Assembly: GCA_965178125.1 (NCBI GenBank)
Contig: OZ237747.1
Span: forward strand, 992,001-1,056,000
Length of the DNA stretch: 64,000 nucleotides
From: Bilabrum cf. latius
Taxonomy: Eukaryota
Direction: 5' to 3'
The stretch's first letter is position 1. The number at the start of each line of letters is the position of its first letter. Under the pieces are notes generated by a model, which did not search any database, had not been told where the DNA came from, and saw nothing but the letters and a program-made list of their open reading frames with translations. This document shows, piece after piece, positions 29,886 to 63,881 of the stretch. Both the position numbers and the translations under genes were made by a program.

Positions 29886-30578
29886 ATGTCAAACCAATCC
29901 TACCTTCCAGCAAAGGAGAACCGCTATACAAGGTATTCAACACAATCCAAGTCCAAGTGGGGCCTCGGAGGCACACTGAAGCGCACGCTTAGCAGGTTTA
30001 CGTCGACATCGGGATATGCCACCTTCCGAAAATGCAATAGCAGCATCAGGGAGTACGCTAGGGAAGAGTTGGGCTTAGCTACTACTTCAACTGCTACTAT
30101 TTCGGAGACTGATGACTACAGAGAAGCAGCGCCAGCTTCAGATTGCCACCGGGTGGAAACTACGACACGTCGAAGCAAAAAGGGGAAGCTGCCATCTCTT
30201 CCCGTGGAAACGCTAGCTATGCGGCTGCAGCGTGAAGAGAAGAAGCCATTTCTACCCAACATTGTATCCCCTGCCGTGAGGAGCTGTACCGCCGTTGTGC
30301 GTTCGGACGATGGTCTGAGCCGACAGAGATTGGAGAGCAAAGCGATTCTGGAGGAATTTCGGCGCGATGTCACCCAAATGGAGCGAGCTGATACGGTATC
30401 TCGGGAGTCTACAAGAGAGATAGAGTCCTTTGCTTCCGATTGCCTGGAGGAATTGAGTGGCGTTTCCGTTGGGTGCGATACGGATCGACCGAGCGTCTCT
30501 TCACCCGCCGGTGTTGCAACGCAGGGACCATGGGTGGGGTTTAGTCGGCGACAGCCGCTTGGTCCTATTCGAATGTAA
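29886..30578 (+). CDS. Hypothetical protein (230 aa)
   Basis: ATG-TAA ORF that shares a motif with the downstream gene. Confidence 0.6.
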   Translation: MSNQSYLPAKENRYTRYSTQSKSKWGLGGTLKRTLSRFTSTSGYATFRKCNSSIREYAREELGLATTSTATISETDDYREAAPASDCHRVETTTRRSKKGKLPSLPVETLAMRLQREEKKPFLPNIVSPAVRSCTAVVRSDDGLSRQRLESKAILEEFRRDVTQMERADTVSRESTREIESFASDCLEELSGVSVGCDTDRPSVSSPAGVATQGPWVGFSRRQPLGPIRM

Positions 30579-30937
30579 TTAAATTCAGTATACAACTATA
30601 TCAAGCAGTGACTACTGTGCGCAAATCCAGTCTGTGTTCATCGAAATCCACAGTGTTCTGCGTCCACCCGAGTGAGGATTCGGCCCGGCCCGGGGAGGCG
30701 CTGCCGTCGTCGCTGGCGGCGTGACGAGTCGCCCGAGCGATGCGAATGGGTGGATGAGTTGCAGACGCGTTCACCGCACGGCATCGATACCAAACTTCTC
30801 GGCGCCTGTTGCAAGAGCATCAGGCCATCATCTGATATCGTATTTGACAGTGGTAGAGCTGCTCCAGACCGAACTGCTCCATCCTTCGCCGACTTGGCCA
30901 GCCAGAGGCCTCTTCGCGAGGAAGCAAAGCCAGGGAC

Positions 30938-31537
30938 ATGGAAGAAGATGAAAGAGTGGAGCTTACATTGAGCAATAGTTTTGACATCTCTGAAATGGAT
31001 GCCCTCCCGGAGATAGAGCCGGCGGCGGTAGGGTGTGAGGAGGTTGGGGGTGAAGAAGCTCTGCGAAGCGTGCGAGGCAACCAGCTGCCAAGCCTGCCAG
31101 CGACTGCACCATCCACGCGATCGGTGGAAGAGTAGGAGCACCGGGCTCAATCATGGTCTATCCAGCCGGCAGGGCGCAGCCAAACTGCTTTGGTGCGTCT
31201 GGAGGACGGTCTGAGCCGGTGGAAAGGCAACAGTGAGGCGGTTTTGAGGAGCTTCCGGCGGGACGTACTGGACATAGAGAGGAGTTAGGGCAGAGCATTT
31301 CGAAGATTCAGACCAGCTCCTATGGCTGAAACGGCTGGATCGGGCGAAATCTCCGTAGGGGATGGAGGGTACCTCGGGCAAGACGCCAACCAGACCACCG
31401 CAGGCGCTGCGTGCGGCACAACTGCAAGTGCCCACCTATCAGCCGCGGCTGGACAATCCAGCCTCGCATCAGCGGAGGAAAAGCCAGGACAAGCAGAACT
31501 GCGGGCGAATATATCCATCGGTAATACAGAATTATAA
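30938..31537 (+). CDS. Hypothetical protein, diverged paralog of 29886-30578 (5' end uncertain)
   Basis: ORFs 30938-31135 and 31322-31537 are joined across two TAGs. The intervening read-through segment matches the upstream gene. Ends TAA. Confidence 0.55.
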
Positions 31538-31677
31538 TGCTTGAAGCTACTCGTGTTTATTTTGCGTTTCAAGGCGCGATTCAAGGTATCACCCACGTGC
31601 GCGCTCACTGCCAGCACTGCCCTGCTCGTGCTCGCTTCGTGGGATCTGTGCGTGAAATCCGGATGGAGAGCCAATAC

Positions 31678-32110
31678 TCACACACCCACGCCAGCTACAG
31701 CAGATTTCCGCGGCCTCAACCGGATTCGCCGCGCCCCGCCCACGGAAGCACCCAACGACTCGGTTGCGGTTGCAGCCAGGCCTGCTGCTGCCCCAGCCGC
31801 CGCAGCTTGGCCGACCTTGCCCGATGGACTTGCTGCAGCCACTGCGTTTTCTTTCACAGCGCTACTGCCAAGTGGCACTCGCTTCGACGGCTGCTGCTGC
31901 AGGTGCTGCGATTGCCCAACCGCCGTCGTCGCGGTGCCCTCCGGCTTGCCCTCGACCTCGGCAGCGGCAGGTGACCCTCCTGCAGCAGCAGCAGCAGCGG
32001 TGGCGGCGGCGCTAGGCACATGCGAGACTCGAGAGGAGGACGATAAGGGGGCCCTGGTTCTCGAGCGGCGGGCAGCAGCAGCAGATGCATGTCGGTGGCG
32101 CTGCCTGCGC

Positions 32111-32142
<32 letters not shown>

Positions 32143-35100
32143 ATGCTGCTGCCCCGTCCGGGCTGCTGCCCCGTCGGTCGAAGGGGCTCGCGCGGCGACG
32201 GCAGGCGCAGACTGCCGCGCCCTGCCACGGCTACCAGAGCTGGCCGTGGAGGCAGTGCGCGACCTGGCTCTGCGCCTGCCGCCCGTCGCACCCGCTGCTG
32301 CGGAACCGGCGCCGCGCAAGTAGGCGGGCACCGGCCGTGCCCTGAACTGCAGCTCCTCTCGCCTGCGCCTCTTGACCTCCTCCTCCTCTTGTTCCCTGGC
32401 CCGGGCCTCCTCCTCCGCTTGTTCCCTGGCGGCTGCCTCCGCCCTCTCCTGCCTCTGCGCCTCGAAGGCAGCCCGCTGCGCCATGCGCTCCTCAAGCCTC
32501 CGCGCCCCCGCGGACTTGGCGGGATGCGTGGGGGCGCGCTTGGGGGCCTGGGCCTGGGCGTGGCTGCTGTGGTTGTTCCCTGCTGCGGGGGGTCCGTGCA
32601 GTACCCCCTGCGGGACGGGTCGGGCGCGGAACACGCGCTCCCGTTGTTCCCTGTCCTGTTCCTCGGCCAGCTTGCGCGCCTCCTCCTAGGCGGCGCGCGC
32701 GTGCAGCAGCTCCGACTGCAGCTGGAACGGCTGCGGAACCGTGGGAGCTGGCGGCGCCACATGCGCGGCGCCACTTACGGAACCTCCAACACCCTCCATG
32801 ATGCCGCGGGCGTGGAACTCGCGCGCCTTCCGCTCCTGCACCTCCTGCTCGTGCTGCTGCCTCCTCATCGTCTCCTCTGCGGTCGCGTGGCGGCCGTCGG
32901 TGGCCAGCGCGAACGGCTTGGGCACGGTGAGCCTCTTTGGTGCAGGGGCAGCACCATGCGATGCACCCTGCGCGGCCATGGCTGCGTAGTCCGGCACGGG
33001 CCGGGCCTTGAACGCCACTTGCGTCGTCTCCCGGGCTCCTCCTGTTCCCCCAGCACCCGCGCCCTCCCCGTGCTGCTGCTGCTGCTGCTGCTGCTGCTGG
33101 GCCTTGGCCGCAGCCCGCGCCTTGCTGGCTAGAGGGGGGGAGAACGGCGTGGTCAGCTCCGTCACGCTGCGGCCCCTGCCTCCCACCAGCGGGGCCACAT
33201 CGAAGCGGGGCATCGGGCGGGCCCTGAACTCCGGCTGGTGTGACGAGTGATCGTGCTCATGGTGTGACGAGTGATCGTGGAGGGTCTCACGCTCGGCGGT
33301 GTGCAGCTTGGGCGGCTGGGGGACAGTAGGCGCGCGCCGGGGAACAAGGCGGATCCCCCTGCTGGCCTCCTGCTGGAGCGCGGCGGCGTCGTACGGACGC
33401 GCGCGGAACGGCCCGACCGCCTGCGCCTCGGCCAGCTGGCGCTCCTCCGTGGACAGCGGAACTTCGTGCGCGGCGCCGTGCTGCGCGAGGACGTCGTCGG
33501 TCGCAAAGTGGAACGGCTTCGGCTCCGTGGGGTGCCGCGGCGCCGCGCCTGCGGAACCGTCGGCCTCCTCGTGACGGAACGCCCTCTCCGCCTTCGCGAC
33601 CTGCTCGGCCAGCGGAACATACCCCTCGCCTGAATGCGCGGCGCCGGCAGCGGGCGCCCGCCTCGGACCCCCAAAGGTGGGGGTCTTCGGCCTCGTGGGC
33701 GAGCGGTGCTGGTGCTGGTGCTGGTTTCCACCGGCTCCTGCGCGCTGTTCCCTGGCTGCGCGGGCGGCTGCCCTCTCTCTCTCCTTCCTCTCCTACTCCA
33801 GCTGCTGCTGCGCCCGCCGGATCTGCAGCTCCTCGGTGGTTAGGGCCGGTTCCTTAGAGGAGGTCCCCGCCGCATTTGCCGAGGCGTGGCTCAGCTTGGG
33901 CGTGTGCGGAACCGTGGTGCGCGGCACCCACGGCTTGGAAGCGGGAGAGCCGGGCTTGCTGCGATGACCTTGCTCCTCACCGTCGCTGTCCTTGGGCCGT
34001 CGGGCCGTGCGTCGCGCTGCTGCGGCGGCGGTCTGCTTCAGGTATCCCGGCGTTGCGGAACCGCCATCCCTGGTTGCGCGGCGCCGCGGGGTCTTCGGGC
34101 GAGGTTTCGCCGAAGCGGTTGCAGCAGTCGCCATCTTGGAACGTTCCGCAGCCGATGCGCGGCGCCGCGCCTCGATCGCCTCCCTCTTCCGGCGGGCCAG
34201 CGCCGCCCTCGCCCTCGAGGCCGTCGTCCCTTTGGCGGCCATCGGAGTCACCGCCTCCATTCGCGCGGCGCCGGTTCCGTTCGTGGGAGCGGCAGCAGTC
34301 GGACTGCTGGGGGCGCCCGTCGCTGCTGCATCACCGTCTGGGGCGGCTGCGGCTGCGGTTGCGGTTGCGGTTGCCCGTTTGGATCGGGCGATGGGGTGTG
34401 CAGAGGCCGCGCGTCTCCTGCTCGTCCCTAATGGTGCCTGTGCATGTGCATGTGCATGTGCATGTGCCCGAGGCTTGCGGGCGCTCGTCACACGCTTGGA
34501 GTGCGCTGGGGCTGCGGCGGCGGTACGCTTCGCTGCGGCGGGCCTTGGTCGCCTTGCCACTGGGTGCACGCTCCGCGCCCGCCTGCCAGCAGCAGGGGGC
34601 GCCGAGGGGGCGGCAGCGGGGCGGGACCGGGGACGAGCTGCGGTGGGAGCTCCCGGCGTCTTGCTAGCGGCCTTCTCTTTCTTGTTCTTCAATGCGGCGC
34701 GCTTCTCTTGTACCCTGGCCCTAGCCCTTGCGCGCGCCTGCGCCTGCGCCTTGGCCACGCGAGCCTTCGCTGCCTCAACCGCCTTGTCGTACTTGGAGGC
34801 GCGCTGATCCGCAGTGCTTCGATCACTGGTCTTACTGTGGGCAGGCCTCTTGTAGGCAGAACGCGCGGCGCCAGATTTCTTGGTTCCGCTCGGCTTGGCT
34901 CGTCGGGAGGTCTTGGCCGTGGGTTGTTGGCTAGAGGGGGCAGGGGCACGCGCGACGACCCGTCGGGCACCTCCAACCGTGCTGATTTTAGACCTTGTTA
35001 GAGCGGCTGCAGGAGACGCCTGCTCGTCCTCCTTGCTGGTTTCCTCTGCCTTGGCCTCGGCGTGATGCTTTGCCGGGCTTGGCGACGGCTTGCCCGCGGG

Positions 35101-35677
35101 AGCTGAGCTGCCCTCTTCCTGGTTCGCGGCGCCGGTTGATTCGGCGGCCTCGCTGTTTTCTCCTTTTGCTGCTTCCTCTGCAGCAAGATCAGCCGCTGCC
35201 ATCATTGATTCTGCAGTGACCATTTCCTCTGGTGCGATGGACTCACGGATGCTTTGCCGCCCTCCGTCATCAAGTGAGAGCTTGCCGGCCATCGGAGAAG
35301 TATCAAAGGAGCCCAAAGGAGGTCTATCATCTGTTGAAATATTCACGTTCTCTGGAGATTGAAGCCTAGCCCTAAATCTTTGCGCAACCTCGCTGCCAAA
35401 CTGGTCCATGAATGCGAGATTCTCGCTACTAGCTAGCCGGTCTGGGCTGATTGCAGACTCTGACATTCTGTCCGGATCTGCAAAAATAGAATCAACTTAG
35501 AATGCGATTGTTGTGGCTGGTGAAGTCGGGATGCGGCGGACAGAGAGAGACTCAGGATGCGAACTCACCAAAGTAGCCGTCATCCTCGGGCTCGCACGCA
35601 TCATTAGCGTCATCTGGGGCAAGGGCTACCGGTGCATCGAAGTTAAAGTCATTCTCATTACCATTGCTCGATGCCAT
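31678..35677 (-). CDS. TPX2: TPX2-like microtubule/spindle protein (join 35569-35677, 31678-35477; ~1300 aa)
   Basis: N-terminal FNFDAP...DGYF resembles the Aurora-A-binding motif. Also YVPLAEQV and repeated T.PKPF.(F/L)ATD and F(K/R)ARP motifs. GTGAG..TTTGCAG intron 35478-35568; TAGs at 33793 and 32686; TGA end. Confidence 0.82.
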
Positions 35678-35733: not shown

Positions 35734-38700
35734 ATGGCGCCGCGCACTGTAGCAATTGCGGAACTTCTGGCGTGGATTGACCAGATTTTCGTCCGGTACT
35801 CCACAGCAGGCAGAGGTGCTGGCTGGTAGAACAGGCACGCCAGGTTGGAAAACAACCTAATTTTTCTCAGTGATGCGGATTGACATTGTATGTACGGCCG
35901 CCTTGGCTTGCATGGTTGCAGCAAGTGAGCGAAGGCGACTTGGCAGTATGGTGTTCGCCTGCATTCTAGAGTCCACATTCTGCCGTTACCGACCAGCATG
36001 CTTCATTTCAATCGCAGATCTACCAACACGATAGCAAGCTCTACCGAACGGAACGACGCCAGAACACCAAAAGCTACACAACTTGCTGGATAAGGACGGC
36101 GATGGAGTTGTGTCTCTCCAAGACTTGTCAGCATTCTGTACTGAGAATGAAGCATGCACCTCAATTGAGCACATGCTCAATTTAAGTCGAGCTGCGGTAC
36201 TGCTGGACATTGGCCAAGCTGGTACGCCAGCAACTGGCAACGTGGAAGCAACTGCTGAAACTCAATAGTAGATGAGTTTGGACGACTTGCCTCTCTGCTC
36301 GGATGTCCAGTCTCAGAATTCATCTGAGAACCGAATGTCAAGTTTCCAGAGTATCATCAATGCAGTGTTTGGATCGGCGCAAGCACAGCAGAGCGCCTCC
36401 GTAGACATCGACTGCATTGATGATTCGGATGACCTCGGCGACGAGCAGTACGAGGAGCTTCTCGCCTCCTTGGAGTACCAGAACGGGGATCACTGGGTCG
36501 TTTCCAGAACTAATGGCACGAATGGCACGGCACAGACCTCTCTTTAGTACCTTGGACACCCGGACGACCTCTACTGGGAGCTCGCTGCCAGCAAGCCGCA
36601 GGATTCGGGCACAGCCTCAGGAATCGAGGCAGATGAGGAGTCATCCTCGTCCTAGGCTGCGGGCGCAGATGACAGTGGCGACGGTTAGGCAGATTAGACG
36701 AGCGCCACAAGAGAGGGTGCTAATTGGGTAGGTGCAGATGGAGGAGCTGGCAGCAGGCTAGATGATGGTGAAGGTGGTGACGATGATGGTGAAGGTGGTA
36801 GTGGCAGTGGAATCGATAGGGGTGGCGGGGCGACAGCCAGTGACAATGCGTCAAGAGTAGATGCTGCTTCAGATGGGCAGGTAGGGACCGCCGCTGGCGA
36901 TGAGGTTGCAACCGATGCCGGGCCAGCTCTAGAGAGGGGGAAGCCACCCAGGCAATTATCCAGACACCCGCCCAGCATGTGCGCCCTCGCTGCTAGCAAG
37001 GTCAAATCCAAGGGTGGAAAGCAGGTGCCGGTGGGGCAGCCGACCACCGTCCGGGAAACGAAGCAGTGCTGGCGCTTGAGGATGCAGAACGCGGGGTTTG
37101 AGACCCCCGATGGAGTCGCGAGGTGGATCACGCACGGTGCCAGGATACACCCGCAGGCAGCTGCTGCAGCCATTCGAAGCAACGTGTCACAGCCTTCGTT
37201 CCCTCGTCTGCTGCAGACGCAAGGAAGAGTGAATGCTGGCAGCGGCGCAAGTGCAGGGAACCCCTGGCAGAATCTGCCGGTCAACACTCCTGCGCTATGG
37301 AAGCGATTCGAACTCAAGACACAGAACCTGCTCATGGGCGGTCCTCCGCCCGCTGCCCTCCCTGCAGGATCCGTGCAGGTCCAAGTGGCTCCAGAAAAGC
37401 CTGGCAACACTGCGAGCTCTCCCGGCAGCCCGCCGCGCGTATCCGCTACGTGGACCGCGGACATTTCCCCGCGGGCCTGGCAGCTGCAGGACCCGACCAG
37501 AAGTTCCGGAGGCTTGCCCGGAACTGGAATGCTGAATGGCGACCATCATAGCAACGGCACGCGCTTTCTTTCGCCCAGCACGGCGATCGGACCCCACAGC
37601 AACGGCACAACCGTCAAGTACTTGACCCCCGAGGGCGTCCCCTTGAGCAGCGTGGTCGTGAGAAGACGCCCACTGTGCGTCCTGAAAGGCGACCACGGAC
37701 GCGCTGGCGGTGTAGTGGAACGGGTGCTTGGGGTTGATGGCAGGGAGCTTGAAGTGTTGATGCAAGGTGCGTGCGACCTGGACCACGTTGTGGATCTCGA
37801 GCACGAGCAACTGGAGGACGTTGCGGCCCTTGAGCCTGCCCCGAATGGCTCATGGCATAGCAGGTGTCCTTGGCTATGGCCAGGATCGAGCGCAAATAGG
37901 CAACAGGCGCAGCAGCTGGAGGCATCAATGCGGAACCGTAGCGACAGTTTCGATGACCGAATGATCCTGTGGCAACTGGCCGTTGAGCTGTGGAGCGTGG
38001 CTGGAACTGCACCACCGGACTCGATGGAGTCAGTGCTTGTCACCGTTCCGCATGGCCATGGAGCGGCCGCAAGCAGCTCGCACAGGGCATCGAGCGAATC
38101 ATGCCTCGAGTCGTTCCCCACCGTGATGCGCGAGGCGCATGACGTCGTCCAGGAATCGGTCGATTCATCTGCACTACGGACAGCTGCGGAGGCATAGTCA
38201 TTCCGCGATTCACAGCCAGACATGGCTGCTCCTGCCGCACGCTCCGTTAACACGCAAGGAGGTGTTGTCAACGTGGTGCGAGCTCCATCGACCGGCGACG
38301 TCCATACCGTTCCAGTCGCAGGAAGGGTGGACAATGCGGAGCTACAAGCAATCTCAAGCTCCATTGCTCATATGCAGCACAAGCTGGACACACTGGTGCA
38401 GACTACAGCTGCGCTGGCTGATATTGTGAGGCCACTCGCGCAGGCCGTTGGTTCCCTGGAAAGCAAAGCCAGCGACAGGCTCGAGGACTTGGAGCAGACG
38501 ATTGCAAGCGTGCTGGCTACTGTGACGGAGCTGGAAAGCGAGTAGGAGCGGCTGGTCCAAACGCAATGTGCATCATCTGTACGACACAGCACAAGTCCGA
38601 GCGGTGCGGCTCCTACGAGCGGTGGCTCACCCGGGCTCGAGTAGCAGCAGCAGGGTACCGGAGTGCATGCAACCGAGCAGGGGCAGACCCAGATGCCACC

Positions 38701-39766
38701 GCCAGCCTCTGATGCGCCTCGAGATTCTCCACGGCATGCACCGCCACTATAGTCAAGTGCCGGACAGGGCCTCGGCTTAGCACCGGACAGCCCAGGGGGG
38801 CCTCCGTTGGACACTGGGGCCGAAGCCACGCAGGTTGACGACGTGCCAGCCCACCCGTCTCAATCTGATATCGGAGCACGCGGAGCCCTCGAATGCGGTG
38901 ACGGCAGTCTCTCTGGCTTGAACGCAAGGTGCAAGGGTAGGATTGGAGGTGCATTTGGTGGAACCATCCAGCTGCAGGACGGCGGTGATACGGCGGCACC
39001 AAAGAACGATGCAAATGTCGTGCCGGATGGAATGCCAGATAGCAGTAGGAACAAAGGAAGCAGGCGGGGTGCACCCTCAAAGATGCATAACTGTGCCCAT
39101 GGCAATGTTGATCATGCTGCCAACTCGCACCAAAGCAGCCAGAACGGTGGTATGCATCGATCGGAGGAGCCGATCCAGTCCTTCGATATCTCCATCGATA
39201 AGGACACGTCTGGCCTTAGTCCCGGGGCGGGCATGGGCACACATTCCAAGGCTGGGCAAGCGAGACGAGGCCGGCTAGCACCGGAGTTCCTTAACATTGG
39301 TCATGGGCAGGTGCTGGGGGGAGCTCAAGATGAAAGAGAGTACGTCACTGACCCGGACTGGCGAGAGGGCAGCGGATTCGAAGAGCTGGACACGCTCATT
39401 GCTCCGAGCAGTGATGCGGATCGTCCTGGCGGTGCTAGTATTAGTGGTACAGTTCCAGCGAGCGGCAGCGACGTGCAGGGGGTCGGGGAGCGCTCAAGCA
39501 AAACCACCAGCGCACCCCCCGTGCAGGTCAATTAGCAGCAGCAGCAGCAGCATAGCCCAAGCGCAGTTCCCAACACCGGGTGGTTAGGATCCGAGTATTG
39601 GAGCAAGGTAGACACCCCGGAGGAAATCGCGGCTCTAGTCGCACTGGTACTGATTGTGATAGGTATGTGCTCGGTCGGTGCGTTGTGGGCTAGGATGCCC
39701 TATCAGCGTGGCAAGCAGGAGACATTCAAGACTCTCTTCGGTCGTGTGCCTAGCACTGGTACCTGA
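35734..39766 (+). CDS. Large EF-hand-containing protein with C-terminal transmembrane helix (putative intron 35816-36017)
   Basis: LDKDGDGVVSLQDL is an EF-hand. Five listed ORFs share one frame from ~36018 and are separated by about a dozen TAGs and no TAA/TGA. Coiled coil near 38340-38540; TM IAALVALVLIVIGMCSVGALW; TGA 39764-39766. The first exon is tentative. Confidence 0.7.
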
Positions 39767-50020: not shown

Positions 50021-51037
50021 GCTGCGAAACAAGTAAAAATATATACTAGAGATCTTTCTAAATCCCGTAATAGGTGTAGGGTCCGGTATATCTCTCTGAA
50101 ACTAGTAGACGAAACCATGTGATGATTTAGTGACGACAAACAGTAAATAAAGCGAAACTCTAACCTTCTGCCTTTCGTAGTTTTGCTGTATTCGTAGCTC
50201 GTACGACTAGGAGCCACGTCGAAGGGTCATCGCGTCGCAGCGACGGGTGCCAATAGGACGCTGGGATGCCGGCAGACACATCACCGACATCCTTGGAAAA
50301 GCAATACATGTTTAGGCTGCGCTGTATCCTCTAACTTTCTTTGCATCGTCTTGCTCTGCGAAGGGCTTTGGCGGGCATTTGTTTTGCATCACGGGTGAAG
50401 CAGAGGGCACGCGAAGGAGGCGACGCAGGCTCTGATAATGTGACTTACAGTCTGGTAGACTTGCCGGGCGCCTGAGCGCGGTCTACGTCCGAAATAGAGC
50501 GTGCAGATCCTACTGGCATGCAGGAGTAAAATACGCGGATGAATTCAAGGTCGTCAAACAGCAATATTCTGTCCCCTGCATCATTCCATGACGCAGTCTC
50601 CGGCTAATGTTCCTCGCAAAAACGCACCGTCCAATACATTTGTCGAATAAATCCAGGCACAGAATTTAGCTGATCAATTGGCAACTCATCTCTGGCCGGC
50701 ATCGGACTTGCGGCCTAGGGGGACGCCACCTTCGATACGCGGCTTCGTGTTCCGTTTCGGTTACGCCGCCGGCACCCGACTTGGAGCCGCGTACCGATGG
50801 AGATTCTGCGCACAGTTCACTAGGACTGTGATTAAAATACCAACGATATCTGCTTGGAGGAATATGTCGAGGTTGTGCGTTGTTTGCGACCGGAGGGACG
50901 CCACGGCGAAAATGTTGCTGACTGCTAATAACGAAAGATGAAGATAGTCCGCAAATCGATTCAGATATTCATTCCTAGAGTGCACGTTGTATCAGTTGTT
51001 GTCTTTTTACAGCTCGAAAATGATAAAATATGAATAG

Positions 51038-56200: not shown

Positions 56201-58682
56201 GAGAGAGCTGGCCAGGGAGCGTCTGCTAAACATCGGCTTTGCAGACCATCAGATTCACCTTGAGTCTTCCGATGGCGACAAGTTCATCGGTCGCCTGGAG
56301 GCATGCGTTGAGCTACCGATGCTGCGCCGGCTTTGGACCACCAAGTTGTCCTCTCGATCTGCCGGCGACAAGTTCAACTTCATTTCGCGTGAGTTGGCTT
56401 ACCTTCTGATGACACCGGAAGAGCACCAGCAGGGCAACAAGAGGCGTAAGCTGAGAGAGGCCCGAGTGGTGTGCTCCGTATACGCTTCAAGGATCGTAGA
56501 AAAGCTGTCAAGCGGTCCTGGGGCTCGAGCTGGCGGTGGTGGGGCAGCGGCAGGTTCAGCCTCTGGGTATGGGGGTGTACCATCTTCGTAGCGCTGGCAG
56601 CTTGTGGAGCCATCCATCATCGGTAGAGGCTGCCCCGACAGCGTGCGGTGCCCACTGAGCGGCAAGCTGTACATCGATCCAGTGCGGACTAGCAACGGCA
56701 AGGTGTACGAACGCAGCGAGATCGTCAAGCATCTGCAGCGGCACGAGAAGCTGCCGGGGTCGAGCTCCAGGGCGACATCAGAAGAGGATCGCACGCTGAA
56801 GGCAGACGCCGAGAAGCTAAGGGCGGTGCGTCGCTGGCTGGAACGACACTCTTGCGGAACCGCAGATAATGCGTTCGGTGGGTCGGGGCACTGGTTTGCC
56901 ACGAGATACAGGATGAATTACGGGATGGGGTACTTCTCACACGACGCATGGAAGCCAGTCTTTGTACACAGCAAGACAGAGCCAGCTGGGCTGCGTCTGC
57001 TTCTCTGGGAGCAATCTGGATTCGATGAAGAGCTTGCGCCGTCCCAGCAGACTCCGTGGTATGGCATGGTCAGTTCTTCCGATGGTTTCGTTAATGGCCA
57101 GGTCGAGCTGTTGTCGTACGGACGAGGGACTCTTCCAACCAAGAGCGTGGGGCTTGCCTACACAGTATCGCCCGAAGGGCTCGCTTGGCCCCCTGCTGTT
57201 GAAAACGAGACGTTGGATGCCGACTACACGCAGCCCACGATCAGCAGCGAGGCGCTACTGAAGGAGAAATGCGGAGGCACTCTGGCAGTGCCTGCCGGCA
57301 GCCTATACATCTGCGAAGAGTACGACGATCAGGGTAACGATCCGGAGCGCAAGAACCGCATGCTTACTGTGAAGGTTTTGTTCCAGGCATTCATAGACAG
57401 GACGGCGGCTTTCGATCTGCCCCATCATCTCGGACTCGTGACCTTCTCAAACAAGCACGAAGAGAAGTGCGGGCTGACTGCAAGCTTTGACGACCTTCGC
57501 ACCAGCCTAGAGGAGATGGAAGAAGATGGCGAGACTGCGATGAACGACGCCATCCAGCACGCTGGCACGATGCTCAGCAGCTGGAAGGCTAGTGTCTTGG
57601 CAAGAAGGCGGGACCAGGGTCAGGGCCACTTGCCGCCGCCCAGGACCCGGATCGTGTGCTTGTCCGATGGCGAGGACACCAATTCCACCAAGCCCCTGCA
57701 TCGGGTGGCTCGAAAGCTCAAACAGGATGGTATCGTGCTGGACGGCGTGCTTGTGGGCACGAGCTCGAACGAGGAGCTGCATCGCATTGCAAAGTTTACG
57801 GGCGGGTACTCCTTCCACCCCAAAACCATGTTCGATGGCCTGCAGCTGTGCGAGCTCGAGACGTTCCTTTCCTCTGCCGACCGCCCCAAGCTGCGCACGG
57901 TAGAGGGCGCAGTGAGCTCCAACTCCGACCTGAGCAGGTGGTCCTCGTACTCCGTGCCCCGCGACGTGTGCTCAGACACTATTGTTCCCCAGAGGCGAAG
58001 GGATCCCAGGCAGACCAAGCGAGCCCTGCCCCTGGCGAAGGCAGTGGCAGCTGTCACCGCGGCTGCAGGGACTCCGGCTGGCATGGCACCACCTGCAGCG
58101 CCTGGCCGTCGCAGCGGCGGCACGGGCACAAGCGGCGGATCGAAAGGAGCGAAGCCCAGCTCCGGCGGAACAGACGCCGCGGCACTCGTCACGCGCAATC
58201 GTCGGATCCTGCGCGAGATGCACGACCTCGTCAAGCGGCCCCACGATGCGTGCCAGGTGTTCCCGAACCAGGACGATGTGGGCTACTGGCGAGTCCTGAT
58301 GAAGGGAGCAGACAACACTCCGTACCAAGGAGGCATCTGGTGCCTGCAGGTGGCCTTCCCGCCAGAGTACCCGACCAAGGCGCCCAGCGTGCGGTTCCTC
58401 ACACCCATCCGGCACGTGAACATCAGCATCCAGGGCAAGGTGTGCCACGCCATTCTGGATCGCGCGTGGACTCCAGAGCAGACGATGAGGGACGTTTTGT
58501 CTCAGATCTACGGGCTGATGATGACTCCGGAGAAGGATGACCCACTGGATTCCAATCTGGCTGCCATGCTGAGCAAGCCGGAGACCAGGGGGAAGTACGA
58601 GGCCACGGTGCAGGCGTTCGTGGACGAGCACGCCAAGGGCAAGACGATGGCTGAGTGGCGGCGGGAGCTGACGGGGCAGTGA
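53270..58682 (+). CDS. Ubiquitin-like/U-box/VWA/UBC (E2) multidomain protein (join 53270-53373, 53426-58682; ~1785 aa)
   Basis: Ubl-like MSLKLTVQVK...VKPDSTVKKLKSLV; intron 53374-53425 GTGAG..TAG. U-box-like CEITNERLVDPV and CPLSGKLYIDPVRTSNGKVYERSEI. VWA VLAVDCSASM / GLVTFS / GETAMNDAI / IVCLSDGED. UBC PYQGG...FPPEYP..AP.VRF.TPIRHVNISIQGKVC. In-frame TAGs at 54084, 56019 and 56589; TGA end. Confidence 0.88.
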
Positions 58683-58856: not shown

Positions 58857-61001
58857 TCAATCTGAAAGCCGGGCTGCAACTTTTTGCTGTGCCTCCCGAA
58901 TCAGAGTCACGTTGATTGTGTACCCATCATTGGGAATGGGTGGCTCCAAGTGCTGCGCACTCCATTGCACCGTGAAGTTCCACACCGTGCTCAGGACCTC
59001 CTGCGGGATTCCGGACGCGGGGCTGCCAAGGAGTGCTGCATCGTGCGCGACGTCGCCAGCATTCCCGCTATCCGAAGGCAGTGCATCGCATTTCACAACC
59101 CCCTGTTGCTTTTCTTGCAGCAGATAGAGGGCCTCTGCATCTTGGATGCCCAGCCAGAGATGCTCGTGCCTGATGGAGGGCAACACGGCAACTCCAGCGG
59201 CCTCGGAGCTCATGCTCGGCGGCACGGAATCGGGTCGCAGCGGAGGGTACAGCTGCACGCCGAATCCGGAGCTGTTGTGGTACAAAGGAAGACCGTGCCA
59301 GGGGTTGCTATACCTGCCTTCGGGATTCCTCCAGTCGTTCGCGTCGTACCACGACAGGGTGCCTCTGAGCCCCTGTCCCTTGGGCACACCGTTCCAGCCC
59401 TCGTCCACGCCGCTGTCAGTCCGCCATACCATCCACGCCTGCAGCCGGATGCGAGGCCACGGCATGTCCACGAATAGCATCCCGTTGTCGTAGATGGTGA
59501 TGGTTTTGCCGGCCTTCCGAAGCCCAGCCAGCTGCAGAGGCACGCCTGGGGTGGACCACTGATTCACGTGGACGCACCACGTGTCGACCGTCTTGACCAG
59601 CTGGGCCATCACCTTGGGGTCTTGTGGGGCAACGGGCATCACGGGCCACCTATCTTGCCAAATGCGGATGTCCTCGCCCAGAGTCTCGGTGGCAAGCTGC
59701 ATCATCTGCAGCGTTGCCTGCGCGGTGGTGTTGTCGTTCCACTCTGGCTCATCCACGACAAAGTACGAGTAGGTGATGGAGCTGAACCAAGGCTGTTCCT
59801 TCAGTTGCGACCACAGGGCGGTCGCAAGCGCTCGCCAGTGCGCCTTGTACTGCTCTGCCAAAGCGACCGATCCGTCTGGCAGCGACTGCAGCAGCGGGAT
59901 GTGACACACGCCAGCTTGCGGGCCCTCAGTCCAGAAGAACGCAGTCGCATTCGTGGTCACGTAGTGAGTCTCGTGGTGCAAACTGACTGGTATAGGGAAG
60001 TGAAACCTCCGCACGGACGAAGTAGCGAGCACCTCCCGCATCTGGGCGAAGTACAATGTCAGGTTGATTGAGTAGTGCGGAGTCAGCGTGCTGCAGTCGC
60101 CTCCAGCCAGGTTCGCCTTGGGTACGGGCCACCAGTCGTTCTGGTACTCGAGGGAGTTGACCCCGTGGGAGGTCATCGCTTGGATTGCGTGCATGAAACT
60201 CCCCGTTGTGTTACCCTTAAACTGCCCGGGCTGGGCGTACTCGAGTGCCACCCCTTGCGAGTGGCAGTCTGTCAGCTGGTGGAGCTCAGGGCTGTCTGCA
60301 TCGAGCTTCTTGGGAGCAGCGACATTCTTTAGCACTGCTTTAGACGTGCCGATAGGCTAGGTGATGACGCGAATAGGCACGGGAAGCGCGTCAGTCGAGC
60401 ATTTGACCCGGGATGGTCCGGCTCCATCTCCGGTCTCCTGGAACGTGACGTCGAAGGCAAGCTGCCCCGAGCTATCCTGGCTCACAGCAGCTGCCTTCAA
60501 TCGAACCCAGATCGGCCATGTGGTCTGCCCTTCGATTGCCTTGAATGCAGAGTTGTTGGCGAGGCTAGTGTAGCCGGTCACGATCGGTGTGAGAGGGTCC
60601 GGGAACCACCCTGTCAAGTTCTCGGGATTGCTTGGGATCGGCACGTGGACGTACCCAACACCAAACCACGATGAACCTTGAACGAGGGGCGAGCGGCCAG
60701 TCCCACCAGCTGTGCGTACGTTGATAGCTTCCACCCTGTCTGGTACGTTTGAGCCATCAGCACGGCTGATTGCAAGCTAGAGTGCGATCTCTTGGTTGGA
60801 AAGGGCGCTGAAGGATACCTGCTTCGGTATTCCAATTGCACCGGCTTTAGATCCGTCAGGAAACACCTTAACAAGCGAATCAACAATAGAAATGTCCCAA
60901 ACGGATCGGCTCCCATCCATTGATGGCTCGCATGCGATCTATGACGATTGCACAGGGTCTAGCAGAGCAACACAGCACATAACCTATAGAAAGCTGTGCA
61001 T
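58857..61001 (-). CDS. Secreted GH123-like / DUF4091 glycoside hydrolase (714 aa)
   Basis: Signal-like MHSFL(TAG)VMCCVALLDPVQS; SLVKVFPD...ALSNQEIAL(TAG)LAI; WFPDPLTP; YFVVDEP; C-terminal GVQLYP...PSIRHEHLWLGIQDAEALYLL. Four TAGs; TGA end. Confidence 0.78.
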
Positions 61002-61132
61002 GGTCTTTATAGGTGATCGCATTTTGCACCTTCCTACTATTCTGAGCACAGTTTTTTCTGTCGACGTGCCGCGTGAGGCATGCCTGACAGTAATCGGAGC
61101 ACCACGAGCGGAACAACTCGAAGAAGCAGGTG

Positions 61133-62260
61133 TCACAGCTCGTCGTCTTCGGCAGCTTCAAAATACGCCCCAGGGATCTGCGATCCTACTGCCATGCCCG
61201 CTCGATGGGAGAGGCCCGCGCCCGGGTCACCAACATCCCTTGGGCCGGCAGCACCGCCGCTTTTGGCACCACCGGCACCAAACCGAGTAGAGCTGGAACC
61301 GGCTGCCGGGCGGGAAGCCGGCTGCGCCGCAGACACGGACGCTGCATCTAGTGCCGCAGCACTGCCCATCGCTCCGGGTCCGGGGCCAGATACCCCCTTC
61401 GTCCCTGCGGCTTGTTCCCTGCGGCTCCGGATCATCGCCCGGAGCCCCTCCCTGCTCCTGTCCCCCTTTGCCCTCACACGGGCCCGCACTGCAGCATCCC
61501 TATCGATGGAGGCGGTGGGCCGCTTGTCCGGGCCCCGGCCGATCCCTCCCCCGGCGCTGCGCGATCCTCCGGGTGCGGAACCTGCGCCCGTCCCGGCTCC
61601 CGCGCCGCTCGACGGCAGCATCCTCCTCGGCATGCCCTCCCTGTCGGGCGCGAAGCAGTTGCGCGGGCCCCTCAGTGCATCCGGCCCCGAGCGGCCCAAC
61701 GGACCCATGGAAGCCGCGCTGAGCATTTCAGCCACGGCGCCTGCAACGCCAGGGGCCCTCGGGATCCTTCTCTCGGAGAATTCCAGGAAATGCGACGAGA
61801 AGGGATGGTCGCAGTTGCAGATGAATGGCGAGTCGTACTTCGTGCAGTCGCACCTGGAGTTCTTGCAGGGGTGGTCGCCAGGCCCCGCTTCGTGCTCAAT
61901 GGCCTTATGTTTACACCGACAGCGCAGAAGCAGGGCCCCTTGACCGAAGATGTAGTTGAACTGGCCACATTTGCAACCTCGCTCGTCGCAGTGCCAGCCC
62001 CTGCCACCTGCTGCACCTGCATTGTGCTGCCGAAGCCTGTGGCCACAGAGGCATCGACTTTCTGAAATGCAATTTACGCAATGCTGATTGCATTCTCTAC
62101 ACTTCCAGCGGACTTGCATCGCTGCGAGCCGCTATGCCCTCTGCCTCGCCGACAATGGTTTGGCAGATTTTCCTGGCATGCCCACGGGTCGTCTGGAGCT
62201 GGGCGCATATCCAGTTGTAGAATGACTTGTTCGGCCACTAGCCCCACCCGATGCTGCCAT
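61133..62260 (-). CDS. FAM221: FAM221 (DUF4475) family cysteine-rich protein (375 aa)
   Basis: CISESRCLCGHRLRQH...CKCGQFNYI...CRCKHKAIEH...CDCTKYDSPFICNCDHPFSSH. Extends upstream through TAG 62132 to ATG 62260. TGA end. Confidence 0.75.
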
Positions 62261-62399
62261 ATGGAGGTATTTTGTGCCAGAAGTTCACGCTTGCAACGGA
62301 CGTGAAAGGAACGTTCCATGTTCCAACGAAGGTCTATTTTCAACGGCCGCGTGAGAAGCAAAATAGATACTAATTCCACTGTTCAGGTACCAGCATCAT

Positions 62400-63881
62400 T
62401 TACCTCCTTCCACCCGTTGCAGTACCGTCGGCGGCATTGATTTCGGAATGCAGAATGCCAGCTAGCAGCGCAGCCACCTCCCTCGGACGCTCTGCATGCA
62501 GCCAGTGCCCCGCTGCAATGGAATGCAGCCTGCAGCTACCCGTGCTAAGAGAATAGGATTCGACAGAAGCTTTGTTCAGCGTAGACACAGCTGATCCACC
62601 GCCGTCACCGCCACTATCAGACACCCCGTCCGGAGCACTTGCTCTGGAGCGAGCATGGTCAAGAGACAGCCCTGAAGGGTCCAACGCCCGAGGCAGAGGC
62701 GCAGGCGATGCAGGTGAGAGCACGCCTGCGGAACCAGACGGACCATCGCGGCGCCGCGCATCCTGCGCCTCGAGCACGCCCTGCAGCCTTGCGACCACTT
62801 TGGGCACTCCCCAGCGAGCCCCCCGAGTGCCGAGCACGAAATCGATCGCGGCGCCGCGCGGGGGGTTCCGCAGCAGGTCCCACGAGTCGATATCAGCCAG
62901 GTCATGGTAAGCGTTCAATGCCTCGACTGGATCAAACGTCCACACAAACCCATCACTGCCACCATGGTCGTCAGCATGGTCGCGCCCGCTCAGTGGCACC
63001 CCGCGCTCGTCACACGCTGCTTCCGTCACGTTCGTCGTCATCCACTGAGAGAGCGATTTGCTGAAACCCAGCTGCGAAAAATACTCACCCGCCGCGCGGC
63101 GGCTGGGAAACGGAAGCGGCGCAGCACGCACCGCCTCGAGCACGACCTGCACACCATCCTGGTCCCGCCGAGCCTTATGCGGTGTGACGAGTGGATTTCC
63201 TGTTTGTGTTCCCTATGATTGCGAAGGGTGCGTTCTCCACCTTCCCGGGTACGTGTCCAGCACCACGAGGCGTCGCCGGCGGTGCTTCGCGCTGGTGTTG
63301 CTGCTGGGGCTGCTACTGCTGGTGGCAGTGCTCGGCCCGCCCTGCGAATGCAAAATTACTTTGCCGCCCATGGAGTGCCCGATCACCACGTTGATCGGAG
63401 TGGGGGATAGTGTCGGCAATGATGCTTCGTCCAGTCGAACCGCTGACGGCGGAACAGCCGAGTGTGGTCTGTGAAGAGCCGTCCCCGCTGGCACGTCCAG
63501 AGCATGCAAACCAGTCGTGCCCTCGATCTCAATCTCAGACAACAGGCTATTTAATTTCGCTGCGCACCTTTTTACAGATACTGGACGCACGTCGCTGTGC
63601 AGTGATCCAGCGTGAGATGGTAAATCGACGAGGACCGCTGCCCATCGGTTGGCCTCCCGCTCGCCCACTCTGTCCTTTAAGGCACGAAGTACTAGCCTTG
63701 CCACGGACCGCCAATTCTTGCCTGCACCCATCAGTCCATGCACGACAGCGAAAGCTTTGGTTGGGCTTCTTGCTCCCGGGAGAGCTACAAGCTAATGGGC
63801 CAGGGATGACGCATGCCGCCGCGACACAACGACTTCTTGAGCTTTCAAGCACTTTTTCACAAATCTGCGACTAGATCTCAT
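62400..63881 (-). CDS. ABHD11-like alpha/beta hydrolase with mitochondrial-like presequence (493 aa)
   Basis: VHGLMGAGKNWRS, VDLPSH, GHSMGGKV nucleophile, VVLD, QWMTTN and AGHWLHAERP. The catalytic halves are joined across TAG 63213. A second TAG lies at 63792; ATG 63881 MRSSRRFVKK; TAA end. Confidence 0.85.

What the first reader, a model, noticed from the sequence alone, without database searches (positions are those of the whole stretch)
29886..62402. UAA is still a stop: UAA and UAG are decoupled
The gene ends I could define are TGA (18 cases, e.g. 21672, 25692, 31678, 58682) or TAA (30578, 31537, 39941, 62400), and never TAG. No in-frame TAA was seen in any read-through ORF. Most nuclear reassignments (the ciliate-type code) change UAA and UAG together, so this needs a UAG-specific CUA tRNA and an eRF1 that distinguishes UAA from UAG.
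Basis: partly seen in the sequence, partly recalled or inferred. Interest (0 to 1): 0.8.

Follow-up and report, generated by a model that had tools for sequence, protein, structure and literature searches.

The report
TAG is sense; TAA still stops
This stretch of nuclear DNA from an unidentified GC-rich protist reads the stop codon TAG as an amino acid (most likely glutamine) while TAA and TGA still end genes, a rare split already described in a handful of other protists.

Summary
With TAG read through, the window resolves into about 24 long ORFs with eukaryotic domains, and introns are visible in RNA-like contigs.

- **Codon counts.** A conservative set of 20 ORFs (15,608 codons) holds 110 in-frame TAG, 0 TAA and 0 TGA. 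About 40-50 TAA would be expected if TAA were used like TAG (P about 1e-18 or less).
- **Coding signal.** Codon-usage signal continues across TAG but drops after both TGA and TAA.
- **Relative.** A metagenome contig from a relative (71% identical UBC ortholog) also carries in-frame TAG. Its ortholog ends in TAA at exactly the residue where the window's gene ends in TGA.
- **Meaning of TAG.** Most likely glutamine, from the closest homologs, sequence context and a Pfam score scan. A family-profile test did not decide.
- **Not tested.** No genome is held, so tRNA(CUA) and eRF1 could not be examined. "TAG never terminates" cannot be proven from ORFs alone.

UAG-only reassignment has been in print since 2017 (Iotanema, a rhizarian, Scotinosphaera, several ciliates). 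This is a new member of a known kind. It differs in its 59-60% GC and in TGA, not TAA, being the main terminator. The organism was not identified.

The parts
30576..30578 (+). TAA terminator of ORF 29886-30578 (230 codons, no TAG)
   Evidence: The next in-frame TGA is 11 codons on, at 30609-30611. RNA-like contigs X6 (29871-30604) and X7 (29876-30593) both end before it. Contig ends are only a weak hint.
31535..31537 (+). TAA terminator of ORF 30938-31537 (199 codons, 2 TAG), a diverged tandem paralog of the gene before it
   Evidence: The next in-frame TGA is 199 codons on. RNA-like contig X6 covers 30774-31569 and ends 32 nt after the TAA.
39941..39943 (-). TAA terminator of ORF 39941-41320 (weak START/SRPBCC-like match, 5 TAG)
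   Evidence: The next in-frame TGA is 13 codons on. Codon-usage signal falls from 0.339 before to -0.027 after.
62400..62402 (-). TAA terminator of the alpha/beta-hydrolase ORF 62400-63998 (5' end runs off the window; 2 TAG)
   Evidence: Solved esterases align so that their C-termini fall about 11-13 residues before this TAA (1r3d_A ends at query residue 487 of 499). The next in-frame TGA is 20 codons on.
53367..58682 (+). VWA/U-box/UBC protein gene, 1771 codons, 4 in-frame TAG, TGA terminator at 58680-58682
   Evidence: Pfam UQ_con 2e-33, U-box and VWA. The ortholog on L001 aligns to the last residue and ends in TAA.
46123..50217 (-). 1364-codon ORF with 26 in-frame TAG, 0 TAA, TGA end
   Evidence: RNA-like contigs start at 45847/45869 and run into it.
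40962..45719 (+). 1585-codon ORF with 14 in-frame TAG, 0 TAA, TGA end
   Evidence: Contig X5 covers 40950-45869 with no differing letter, so the TAGs stand in that contig. Public fragments at 79-91% identity lie between its TAGs.
35870..39766 (+). 1298-codon ORF with 12 in-frame TAG, TGA end; holds a 93-nt intron
35925..36017 (+). Spliceosomal-type intron (GT..AG, 93 nt)
   Evidence: The joint 35924>36018 is seen in X5, X6 and X7 but not in the DNA-like run X1.
35478..35568 (-). Intron (CT..AC on the + strand, i.e. GT..AG on the - strand, 91 nt) upstream of the ATG of the TPX2-domain gene
   Evidence: The joint 35477>35569 is seen in X5 and X6.
31678..35466 (-). TPX2-domain gene, 1262 codons, 2 TAG, TGA end
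28427..29740 (-). GT64-type glycosyltransferase gene, 437 codons, 5 TAG (2 inside the domain), TGA end
21672..24902 (-). JmjC-domain gene, 1076 codons, 9 TAG, TGA end; the domain runs to within 8 residues of the end
58857..61136 (-). 759-codon ORF, 4 TAG, TGA end
61133..62260 (-). FAM221-domain gene, 375 codons, 1 TAG, TGA end
10132..13983 (-). 1283-codon ORF, 10 TAG, TGA end; paralog at 17033-20146

Best explanation
The window is nuclear DNA of an unidentified, GC-rich (59-60%), intron-poor eukaryote. Its cytoplasmic translation reads UAG as an ordinary sense codon, most likely glutamine, where it makes up about 14% of Gln codons. UAA and UGA remain the only terminators, and UGA is the commoner of the two. 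A relative sampled in a metagenome shares the code.

Shown here:
- TAG is in frame throughout genes.
- TAA and TGA are absent from reading frames.
- TAA stands at gene ends and behaves like TGA.

Inferred from established knowledge (PMC5304391, PMC11687900) and not tested here:
- A tRNA-Gln with anticodon CUA decodes UAG but cannot pair with UAA.
- No UUA-anticodon suppressor exists, because it would also read UAG and UAA together.
- eRF1 has lost efficient UAG recognition but keeps UAA and UGA.
For: 1. TAG is sense. Opening TAG raises the number of ORFs of 1000 or more codons from 0 to 9. Opening TAA instead leaves it at 0. Twenty ORFs with 15,608 codons hold 110 TAG, 0 TAA and 0 TGA.

2. The DNA is eukaryotic and nuclear. 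Pfam finds UQ_con, U-box, VWA, TPX2, FAM221, JmjC and GT64. Two GT..AG introns appear only in RNA-like contigs.

3. The TAGs are not edited away. Contigs X5 36018-40772 and 40950-45869 carry no differing letter across two genes that hold 26 TAGs.

4. TAA is not sense. Expected in-frame TAA is 50.0 from the off-frame rate, 41.9 from CAA/CAG, and 19.7 from TTA/TTG. None is observed. With TGA as the only stop, TAAs in real genes' frames lie only upstream of the ATG or 13-20 codons from the end.

5. TAA behaves as a stop. Four ORFs end in TAA. The mean codon-usage log-odds per codon is 0.131 before and 0.121 after 103 in-frame TAGs. It falls from 0.171 to 0.012 after 16 TGA ends and from 0.178 to -0.021 after the 4 TAA ends. 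Only 0.7% of random quartets of coding segments score as low. RNA-like contigs of two studies end at 30604 and 30593, before the next in-frame TGA at 30609.

6. The relative agrees. Contig L001 has 3 ORFs (221 + 1269 + 275 codons) with 14 in-frame TAG and 0 TAA or TGA, and all three end in TAA. Its UBC ortholog (135/190 identical) aligns to the very last residue of both proteins, TGA here and TAA there.

7. TAG is probably Gln.
- In L001's NPC1-like gene, TAG66 aligns with Q in a 66%-identical fragment. TAG208 aligns with Q in 2 of the nearer homologs, and TAG770 with Q in the 4 of the 11 homologs aligned pairwise that have Q there; all 4 are among the 5 nearest.
- The GT64 Pfam score is highest with Q or K (50.0 bits) and is 47.3 bits with L.
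- One paralog pair shows TAG opposite CAA.
- A neighbour-context classifier ranks Q first, with L 5.1 nats behind. None of 150 held-out true-Leu, true-Ser or true-Glu samples reaches that margin, against 84% of true-Gln samples.
Against: - Only 4 TAA ends lie in the window, and all are ORF-defined. For 3 of them the next in-frame TGA is only 11-20 codons on, so ORF length alone cannot tell a TAA stop from read-through.
- The homology support for the hydrolase C-terminus is weak (E 0.004).
- Contig ends are unreliable. X6 and X7 contigs also stop at 39719/39716, before the TGA of gene 35870-39766. X5 is flagged by the tool as 'probably DNA' although it carries both spliced joints.
- The best TAA evidence (L001) comes from a relative, not from this genome.
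- The meaning of TAG is not settled. A profile built from 6 to 135 NPC1-family homologs ranks M first and Q and L within 0.2-0.7 bits of each other. In the wide alignment L is the commonest residue at 2 of the 4 alignable TAG columns. True-His contexts reach the observed Q-over-L margin in 34% of trials.
- No tRNA or eRF1 was seen, so the mechanism is inference only.
- An occasional or context-dependent stop function of TAG is not excluded.
Confidence: 0.8

Rival explanations
1. UAA is reassigned together with UAG (the common UAR=Gln code) and is merely rare because the genome is GC-rich.
For: TAA is the rarest of the three triplets in the window (369 on both strands, against 971 TAG and 1673 TGA). 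Three of the TAA ends have a TGA 11-20 codons further on.
Against: A-ending codons are not that rare in these genes: CAA/CAG 186/488, GAA/GAG 246/547, AAA/AAG 122/339. That predicts 40-50 in-frame TAA for 110 TAG, and none is seen. Off-frame TAA occurs at 0.32% per codon in the same ORFs. Coding signal drops after TAA. The ortholog in L001 ends in TAA at the conserved C-terminus.
Confidence: 0.02
2. UAA is neither sense nor a working stop (unassigned or avoided). Only UGA terminates, and the four TAA 'ends' are chance TAAs just upstream of the real TGA.
For: TGA ends 20 of 24 ORFs. A TGA follows within 11-20 codons at three TAA ends.
Against: - All four in-frame TAAs would have to fall by chance in the last stretch of their genes, with none among about 15,600 other codons.
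- For ORF 30938-31537 the next TGA is 199 codons on, well beyond the RNA-like contig's end at 31569.
- In L001, 3 of 3 ORFs end in TAA, one of them at an ortholog-defined terminus, with the next TGA 109 codons on.
Confidence: 0.03
3. [quoted passage not shown] On this reading 'never TAG' is wrong while the rest stands.
For: - ORF calling with TAG read through cannot detect a TAG terminator.
- In several ORFs the last TAG lies 6-60 codons before the TGA or TAA. The values 6, 10 and 18 belong to doubtful ORFs, and 40-52 to the three-copy paralog family.
- L001's NPC1-like ORF has TAGs 15 and 10 codons before its TAA.
Against: - TAGs are spread evenly over gene length, with no depletion towards the 3' end.
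- Coding signal is unchanged across TAG.
- Genes whose C-termini are fixed by a terminal domain (UBC, JmjC, cytochrome b561) end in TGA, not TAG.
- The base after TAG (C 39, G 34, A 21, T 16) resembles that after CAG.
Confidence: 0.08
4. UAG is sense but encodes leucine (as in the rhizarian exLh and some phyllopharyngean ciliates) or another residue, not glutamine. The decoupling from UAA stands either way.
For: In the 135-sequence NPC1-family alignment, L is the commonest residue at TAG203 (50) and TAG770 (56). The family-profile test does not separate Q from L.
Against: - The nearest homologs have Q at TAG66, TAG208 and TAG770.
- The GT64 score is 2.7 bits lower with L than with Q, and EXTL2 and EXT2 have K at the aligned site.
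- In the context classifier, 0 of 150 true-Leu samples reach the observed Q-over-L margin.
Confidence: 0.1
5. The in-frame TAGs are artefacts: pseudogenes, assembly errors, RNA editing of UAG, or a non-nuclear (phage or bacterial, code 15) origin.
For: None specific. TAG=Gln is also known in phages (PMC9523058, seen in a search listing only).
Against: - 110-128 TAG with 0 TGA and 0 TAA cannot come from decay.
- Independent runs hold the same letters, with only one differing base in 20 kb.
- Spliced introns and eukaryote-only domains are present.
- The same pattern appears in a separate metagenome contig.
Confidence: 0.01

Closest known systems
Iotanema spirale (Fornicata): UAG=Gln, UAA and UGA stops (Panek et al. 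2017, PMC5304391; abstract and sections 6, 7 and 9 read)
   Same: The code table is the same as far as tested. In-frame UAG probably encodes Gln, there is no in-frame UAA or UGA, and UAA and UGA are the terminators. The predicted mechanism is the same: tRNA-Gln(CUA) plus an altered eRF1.
   Different: Iotanema ends genes in UAA 104 times and in UGA 15 times. Here the counts are 4 TAA and 20 TGA in a 59-60% GC genome. Iotanema's eRF1 T32G change could not be looked for. The relationship between the two organisms is unknown.
Ciliates with UAG=Gln only: Hartmannula sinica, Trochilia petrani, Protocruzia tuzeti (McGowan et al. 2024, PMC11687900; abstract, introduction and discussion read)
   Same: UAG is reassigned to Gln and UAA is kept as a stop. 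UAG is widely used inside genes.
   Different: In the phyllopharyngeans UAA ends 86.9-98.3% of genes and UGA is the rarest stop. Their GC content is 27-54%. The window is a multi-gene 64-kb stretch at 59-60% GC that ends genes mostly in TGA.
Rhizarian exLh (Sainouroidea) and TARA phyllopharyngean MAGs: UAG=Leu, UAA stop (PMC5304391, PMC11687900)
   Same: UAG-only reassignment with UAA and UGA as stops. In exLh the organism turned up inside another organism's transcriptome. Here too the runs that hold the sequence carry several different organism labels.
   Different: The encoded residue there is Leu. Here the nearest homologs, the GT64 score and the context test favour Gln, although one profile test is undecided. 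In exLh UAA is the dominant stop (56 of 71).
Scotinosphaera (green alga): UAG=Ser, UAA stop (cited in the discussion of PMC11687900; the primary paper was not seen)
   Same: UAG is decoupled from UAA in a nuclear code.
   Different: Ser contexts do not fit: Ser lies 18.7 nats behind Gln, and 0 of 150 true-Ser samples reach the observed margin.
UAR=Gln codes (NCBI table 6: many ciliates, hexamitin diplomonads, some ulvophytes, Amoeboaphelidium, Streblomastix)
   Same: UAG is read as Gln.
   Different: Those codes also read UAA as Gln. Here in-frame TAA is absent against 40-50 expected.

Membership tests
Nuclear UAG-only reassignment with UAA and UGA kept as stops (Iotanema / exLh / phyllopharyngean type) | Many in-frame UAG in genuine protein-coding genes | tested here: met
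   110 TAG in 15,608 codons of 20 ORFs. They include genes with Pfam domains. Two TAGs lie inside the GT64 domain.
Nuclear UAG-only reassignment with UAA and UGA kept as stops (Iotanema / exLh / phyllopharyngean type) | No in-frame UAA or UGA in coding sequence | tested here: met
   0 TAA and 0 TGA, against 20-50 TAA expected. TAAs in TGA-bounded frames lie only at the gene extremes. L001 has 0 in 1,765 codons.
Nuclear UAG-only reassignment with UAA and UGA kept as stops (Iotanema / exLh / phyllopharyngean type) | UAA marks bona fide, homology-defined ends of coding sequences | tested here: met
   The L001 ortholog ends in TAA at the residue where the window's gene ends in TGA. In the window itself there are 4 ORF-defined TAA ends, with a drop in coding signal (p = 0.007) and one weak homology anchor.
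Nuclear UAG-only reassignment with UAA and UGA kept as stops (Iotanema / exLh / phyllopharyngean type) | UAG never used as a terminator | tested here: inconclusive
   No ORF needs a TAG end, TAGs are spread evenly, and coding signal continues past them. ORF logic cannot detect a TAG stop, and no 3'-end data were available beyond contigs.
Nuclear UAG-only reassignment with UAA and UGA kept as stops (Iotanema / exLh / phyllopharyngean type) | Cognate tRNA with a CUA anticodon and no UUA-anticodon suppressor | not testable with these tools
   There are no tRNA genes in the window or in L001, and no whole genome is held.
Nuclear UAG-only reassignment with UAA and UGA kept as stops (Iotanema / exLh / phyllopharyngean type) | eRF1 N-domain change that weakens UAG recognition (for example T32G in Iotanema, A at position 69 in exLh) | not testable with these tools
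   eRF1 is not in the window, and no genome is held.
UAG=Gln subtype (Iotanema, Hartmannula, Trochilia, Protocruzia; the old NCBI table 15) | UAG aligns with conserved glutamine in homologs | tested here: inconclusive
   For: Q in the nearest homologs at 3 of the 4 alignable TAG sites of L001's NPC1-like gene; GT64 score best with Q or K; the context classifier. Against or undecided: the wide alignment favours L at 2 sites, and the profile test ranks Q about equal to L. Only a handful of sites are informative.
UAR=Gln code (NCBI table 6) | UAA used in frame as a sense codon alongside UAG | tested here: not met
   0 in-frame TAA against about 42 expected from the CAA/CAG ratio.
UAG=Leu subtype (rhizarian exLh, TARA phyllopharyngeans) | UAG aligns with conserved leucine | tested here: inconclusive
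   L is commonest at 2 wide-alignment columns. The nearest homologs have Q, T or F there. The GT64 score is 2.7 bits lower with L. In the context test, 0 of 150 true-Leu samples reach the observed margin.
Context-dependent stop/sense codes (Condylostoma, karyorelicts, Blastocrithidia) | The same codon is both sense and terminator, and is depleted just upstream of true stops | tested here: inconclusive
   No 3' depletion of TAG is seen, but there are too few genes and no ribosome or 3'-end data.

The most novel reading that the evidence does not exclude
This may be an independent, so far undescribed origin of the UAG-to-Gln-only code in an uncultured eukaryotic lineage. All its nearest protein relatives are unnamed metagenome or read-archive sequences. 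Its genome is GC-rich, and UGA, not UAA, is the main terminator. Every described UAG-only lineage is UAA-dominant, and AT pressure or codon capture is usually invoked to explain them. A GC-rich case would show that UAG can be captured without AT-driven loss of UAG stops.
Probability: 0.4. Interest if true: 0.6.

Novelty: new member of a known kind. Interest (0 to 1): 0.5.

Why it matters
Codes in which UAG and UAA differ are rare, and they show that the eukaryotic termination machinery can tell the two codons apart. That bears on how codes evolve and on engineering amber suppression in eukaryotes.

This case adds a GC-rich, UGA-dominant example with genomic DNA in hand. A whole-genome search for the tRNA(CUA) gene and the eRF1 sequence would therefore test the proposed mechanism directly; the 2017 transcriptome-only study that first described such codes (PMC5304391) could not look for the tRNA gene.

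There is also a practical point. Standard-code gene callers cut this lineage's genes at every TAG. Public protein collections hold L001's NPC1-like gene as separate fragments (six hits at 99-100% identity: P0001-3, P0005, P0009, P0051). Annotation of this genome therefore needs TAG read as sense and TAA and TGA as stops.

Tried and rejected
- **Whole genome.** None is held, so genome-wide stop counts, a tRNA(CUA)/tRNA(UUA) search and eRF1 analysis were impossible.
- **tRNA and RNA families.** There are no tRNA genes in the window or L001 and no Rfam match in the window.
- **Sequencing runs.** No holder is on record as RNA. Three runs are only guessed to be RNA. I treated them as RNA-like because they alone carry the two spliced joints.
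- **Contig ends.** They gave only weak hints, and one counter-example (39716/39719, before a TGA) shows they are unreliable.
- **ESM Atlas.** It turned down a translation with X and then one under a non-standard code. I dropped that tool.
- **Word-indexed protein search, GT64 protein.** No hit.
- **Word-indexed protein search, 1585-aa protein, shorter mode.** It found three fragments at 79-91% identity that lie between the TAGs and so say nothing about the meaning of TAG.
- **Paralogs within the window.** Most TAGs are shared. The three differences (GAG, TCG, CAA) are too few to use, and two lie in untranslated or frameshifted parts.
- **JmjC against solved structures.** The alignments did not reach the TAG sites.
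- **Family-profile test of the 20 possible TAG meanings on L001's NPC1-like gene.** Undecided.
- **TAG share against GC3.** No relation between a gene's TAG share and its GC3 (Spearman -0.08, p = 0.72).
- **Naming the organism.** The nearest homologs carry no organism names, so the lineage stays unidentified.
- **Earlier notes of this scan.** Nothing for this genome or for look-alike stretches.
- **Literature.** Searches found no paper describing a GC-rich, UGA-dominant UAG=Gln eukaryote. Those searches cover only the held open-access library.

Full report
**What the window is**

The 64-kb window is 57-67% GC, about 59-60% overall. Under the standard code it has no ORF of 1000 or more codons. 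With TAG read through it has nine. Opening TAA instead of TAG changes almost nothing: 0 ORFs of 1000 or more codons, and 8 of 500 or more in both cases.

The TAG-open ORFs carry eukaryotic domains:
- UQ_con, U-box and VWA in one 1771-residue protein
- TPX2
- FAM221
- JmjC
- a GT64-type glycosyltransferase
- an alpha/beta hydrolase
- a cytochrome b561

Public runs hold the stretch. Four were laid on 28000-47999. Three of them (X5, X6, X7; two studies), which the tool only guesses to be RNA, carry two spliced joints that the DNA-like run X1 lacks. One is 35925-36017 (93 nt, GT..AG). The other is 35478-35568 (91 nt, GT..AG on the minus strand).

This is therefore nuclear DNA of an intron-poor eukaryote. 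The contigs that span genes 35870-39766 and 40962-45719 show no differing letter, so the 26 TAGs of those genes stand in the contigs and are not edited away. No whole genome is held.

**Checking the observation**

I listed 24 ORFs with TAG open. They total 16,561 codons with 128 in-frame TAG, 0 TAA and 0 TGA. Twenty end in TGA and four in TAA, at 30578+, 31537+, 39941- and 62400-.

Four ORFs without a domain and with weak codon bias were then dropped: 5011-6006, 25311-25856, 26586-27038 and 27091-27966. The remaining 20 ORFs have 15,608 codons with 110 TAG and 0 TAA.

Because ORFs were bounded by TAA and TGA, a zero count could be circular. I therefore also bounded frames by TGA alone:
- In the frames of the real genes, TAA occurs only upstream of the ATG. 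Examples are codons 10, 32 and 111 of a 1705-codon frame, followed by 1593 TAA-free codons, and codon 165 of 1467, followed by 1301 TAA-free codons.
- Otherwise it occurs 13-20 codons from the end.
- Antisense and off-frame ORFs carry TAA mid-body.
- The ORFs cover most of the window, so there is no room for genes that TAA would have split.

Expected in-frame TAA:

| Basis | Expected TAA | P(none) |
|---|---|---|
| Off-frame TAA rate in the same ORFs | 50.0 | 2e-22 |
| TAA used relative to TAG as CAA is to CAG (186/488) | 41.9 | 6e-19 |
| TTA/TTG ratio, the most extreme (34/190) | 19.7 | 3e-9 |

GC bias cannot explain the absence.

**Is TAA a stop, or only absent?**

Four lines bear on this.

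1. Codon-usage signal. This is the log-odds of in-frame against off-frame usage, averaged over 25 codons.

   | Site | n | Before | After |
   |---|---|---|---|
   | In-frame TAG | 103 | 0.131 | 0.121 |
   | Terminal TGA | 16 | 0.171 | 0.012 |
   | Terminal TAA | 4 | 0.178 | -0.021 |

   Only 0.7% of random quartets of coding segments score as low as the four post-TAA segments.

2. Contig ends. For gene 29886-30578, contigs of two studies end at 30604 and 30593, before the next in-frame TGA at 30609-30611. For gene 30938-31537, a contig ends at 31569, while the next in-frame TGA lies 199 codons on. Contig ends are weak evidence. Two contigs also stop at 39716/39719, before the TGA of another gene.

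3. Hydrolase C-terminus. The catalytic-His motif of the hydrolase aligns with the C-terminal residues of solved esterases, whose chains end about 11-13 residues before the TAA. The E-values are poor, 0.004 at best.

4. A relative; this is the best evidence. A scan of metagenome contigs with the TAG-free C-terminal 692 residues of the UBC protein found one relative, L001 (5,840 nt, 52-57% GC).
   - L001 has three ORFs of 221, 1269 and 275 codons, with 0, 10 and 4 in-frame TAG and no TAA or TGA.
   - All three end in TAA.
   - The UBC ortholog is 71% identical (135/190) and aligns to the very last residue of both proteins. The window's gene then has TGA. L001 has TAA, with another TAA three codons on and no TGA for 109 codons.

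   TAA and TGA therefore replace each other as terminators in this lineage, while TAG is sense in both members.

**What TAG encodes**

Evidence for Gln:
- In L001's NPC1-like gene (Sterol-sensing and Patched domains), a full HMMER search found 1045 relatives.
- In pairwise alignments of 11 chosen homologs (P0099, P0004, P0006, P0007, P0008, P0017, P0043, P0071, P0010, P0011, P0012), TAG66 faces Q in a 66%-identical fragment.
- TAG208 faces Q in P0004 and P0007. TAG770 faces Q in P0004, P0006, P0007 and P0008. TAG203 faces T, F or M.
- In the window, the GT64 Pfam score with each of the 20 residues at the two TAGs is highest for Q and K (50.0 bits). L scores 47.3 and W scores lowest at 46.3.
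- EXTL2 and EXT2 have K at the first of those sites.
- One paralog pair shows TAG opposite CAA.
- A naive-Bayes classifier on the eight neighbouring residues ranks Q first for the 99 TAGs of 17 non-redundant ORFs (three paralog copies left out). L is 5.1 nats behind, E 7.6 and S 18.7.
- With held-out models, none of 150 samples of true Leu, Glu, Ser, Arg or Met contexts reaches that Q-over-L margin. 84% of true-Gln samples do, and so do 34% of true-His samples.
- The base after TAG resembles that after CAG, and TAG would make up 14% of Gln codons.

Evidence against, or undecided:
- In the 135-sequence alignment, L is the commonest residue at TAG203 and TAG770.
- Profiles built from the 6, 15, 40 or 135 best homologs rank M first, with Q and L within 0.2-0.7 bits of each other.

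I put Gln at about 0.85.

**Does TAG ever terminate?**

ORF reading cannot show this. No ORF needs a TAG end, TAGs are evenly spread along genes, and coding signal continues past them. Genes whose ends are fixed by a terminal domain (UBC, JmjC, cytochrome b561) end in TGA. A minor or context-dependent stop role for TAG stays open.

**Mechanism (inferred, not tested)**

This follows PMC5304391 (section 9) and PMC11687900 (introduction and discussion). A UAG-only sense codon needs a tRNA with anticodon CUA, because a UUA anticodon would read UAA as well. It also needs an eRF1 that has lost efficient UAG recognition while keeping UAA and UGA. Iotanema has T32G in the GTS motif, and the rhizarian exLh has Ala at position 69.

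Neither a tRNA gene nor eRF1 lies in the window or in L001.

**Comparison with what is known**

Decoupled nuclear codes are in print:
- Rhizarian exLh: UAG=Leu, stops 56 UAA and 15 UGA.
- Iotanema spirale: UAG=Gln, stops 104 UAA and 15 UGA (PMC5304391, sections 6 and 7).
- Scotinosphaera: UAG=Ser.
- Protocruzia tuzeti, Hartmannula sinica and Trochilia petrani: UAG=Gln.
- Three TARA phyllopharyngean MAGs: UAG=Leu. In the phyllopharyngeans UAA ends 87-98% of genes (PMC11687900, discussion).

The window fits the UAG=Gln subtype. It differs in base composition (59-60% GC) and in using TGA for 20 of 24 ends. Its relative L001 (52-57% GC) uses TAA for 3 of 3.

The nearest protein relatives are all unnamed metagenome or read-archive sequences, so the lineage could not be named. 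I cannot say whether this genome's code has already been published. My four literature searches found no GC-rich, UGA-dominant case in the held library.

**Verdict**

The mechanism was not tested. The finding is a new member of a known kind, and of moderate interest.

Noticed in passing
window 1600-4687 (also 727-923 and 4721-5069): There is a large tandem array with a 112-nt unit (27.6 copies, 95% matches) and a higher-order period of 447 nt. Several frames on the minus strand stay open across it, so ORF lists there are unreliable.
   Followed up: partly
window 8047-13983, 14261-20146, 20424-21452: This is a segmental duplication. The roughly 360-codon gene is present three times (93-99% nt identity) and the roughly 1280-codon gene twice (96%). 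The second large copy (17033-20146) is out of frame with the first over its last 150 or so codons and may be a decaying copy. TAG positions are shared between the copies.
   Followed up: partly
window 35925-36017 and 35478-35568: Two short GT..AG introns (93 and 91 nt) sit at the 5' ends of a divergent gene pair and are seen only in RNA-like contigs. The 93-nt intron is a multiple of three and has no TGA or TAA, so it is invisible to ORF calling.
   Followed up: partly
It lies antisense to my doubtful ORF 25311-25856 and may be the last exon of a multi-exon membrane-protein gene. Its gene structure was not resolved.
   Followed up: no
window 45847-45869: RNA-like contigs of the convergent genes 40962-45719(+) and 46123-50217(-) end or begin within about 20 nt of each other in three runs. 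That suggests abutting 3' ends, with UTRs of about 150 and 255 nt.
   Followed up: no
L001 970-4779: Public protein collections hold this NPC1-like gene as separate fragments: six hits at 99-100% identity (P0001-3, P0005, P0009, P0051). Where I checked against the TAG positions (66, 91, 203, 490, 770, 1113), fragments begin or end beside a TAG. Examples are 8-65, 102-202, 247-489, 512-769, 935-1112 and 1118 onward. Standard-code gene calling therefore fragments this lineage's proteins.
   Followed up: partly
L001 and homologs P0004/P0017, P0008/P0043/P0153: More distant NPC1-like homologs (30-38% identity) from other metagenome contigs are also recorded as two or three separate proteins on one contig. 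They may come from further lineages with in-frame stops or introns. Their DNA could not be fetched.
   Followed up: no
window 29886-30578 and 30938-31537: Two small tandem paralogs share a conserved block (…DGLSR…EEFRRDV…). Both end in TAA, so two of the four TAA ends in the window come from one gene family, although their C-terminal tails have diverged.
   Followed up: no
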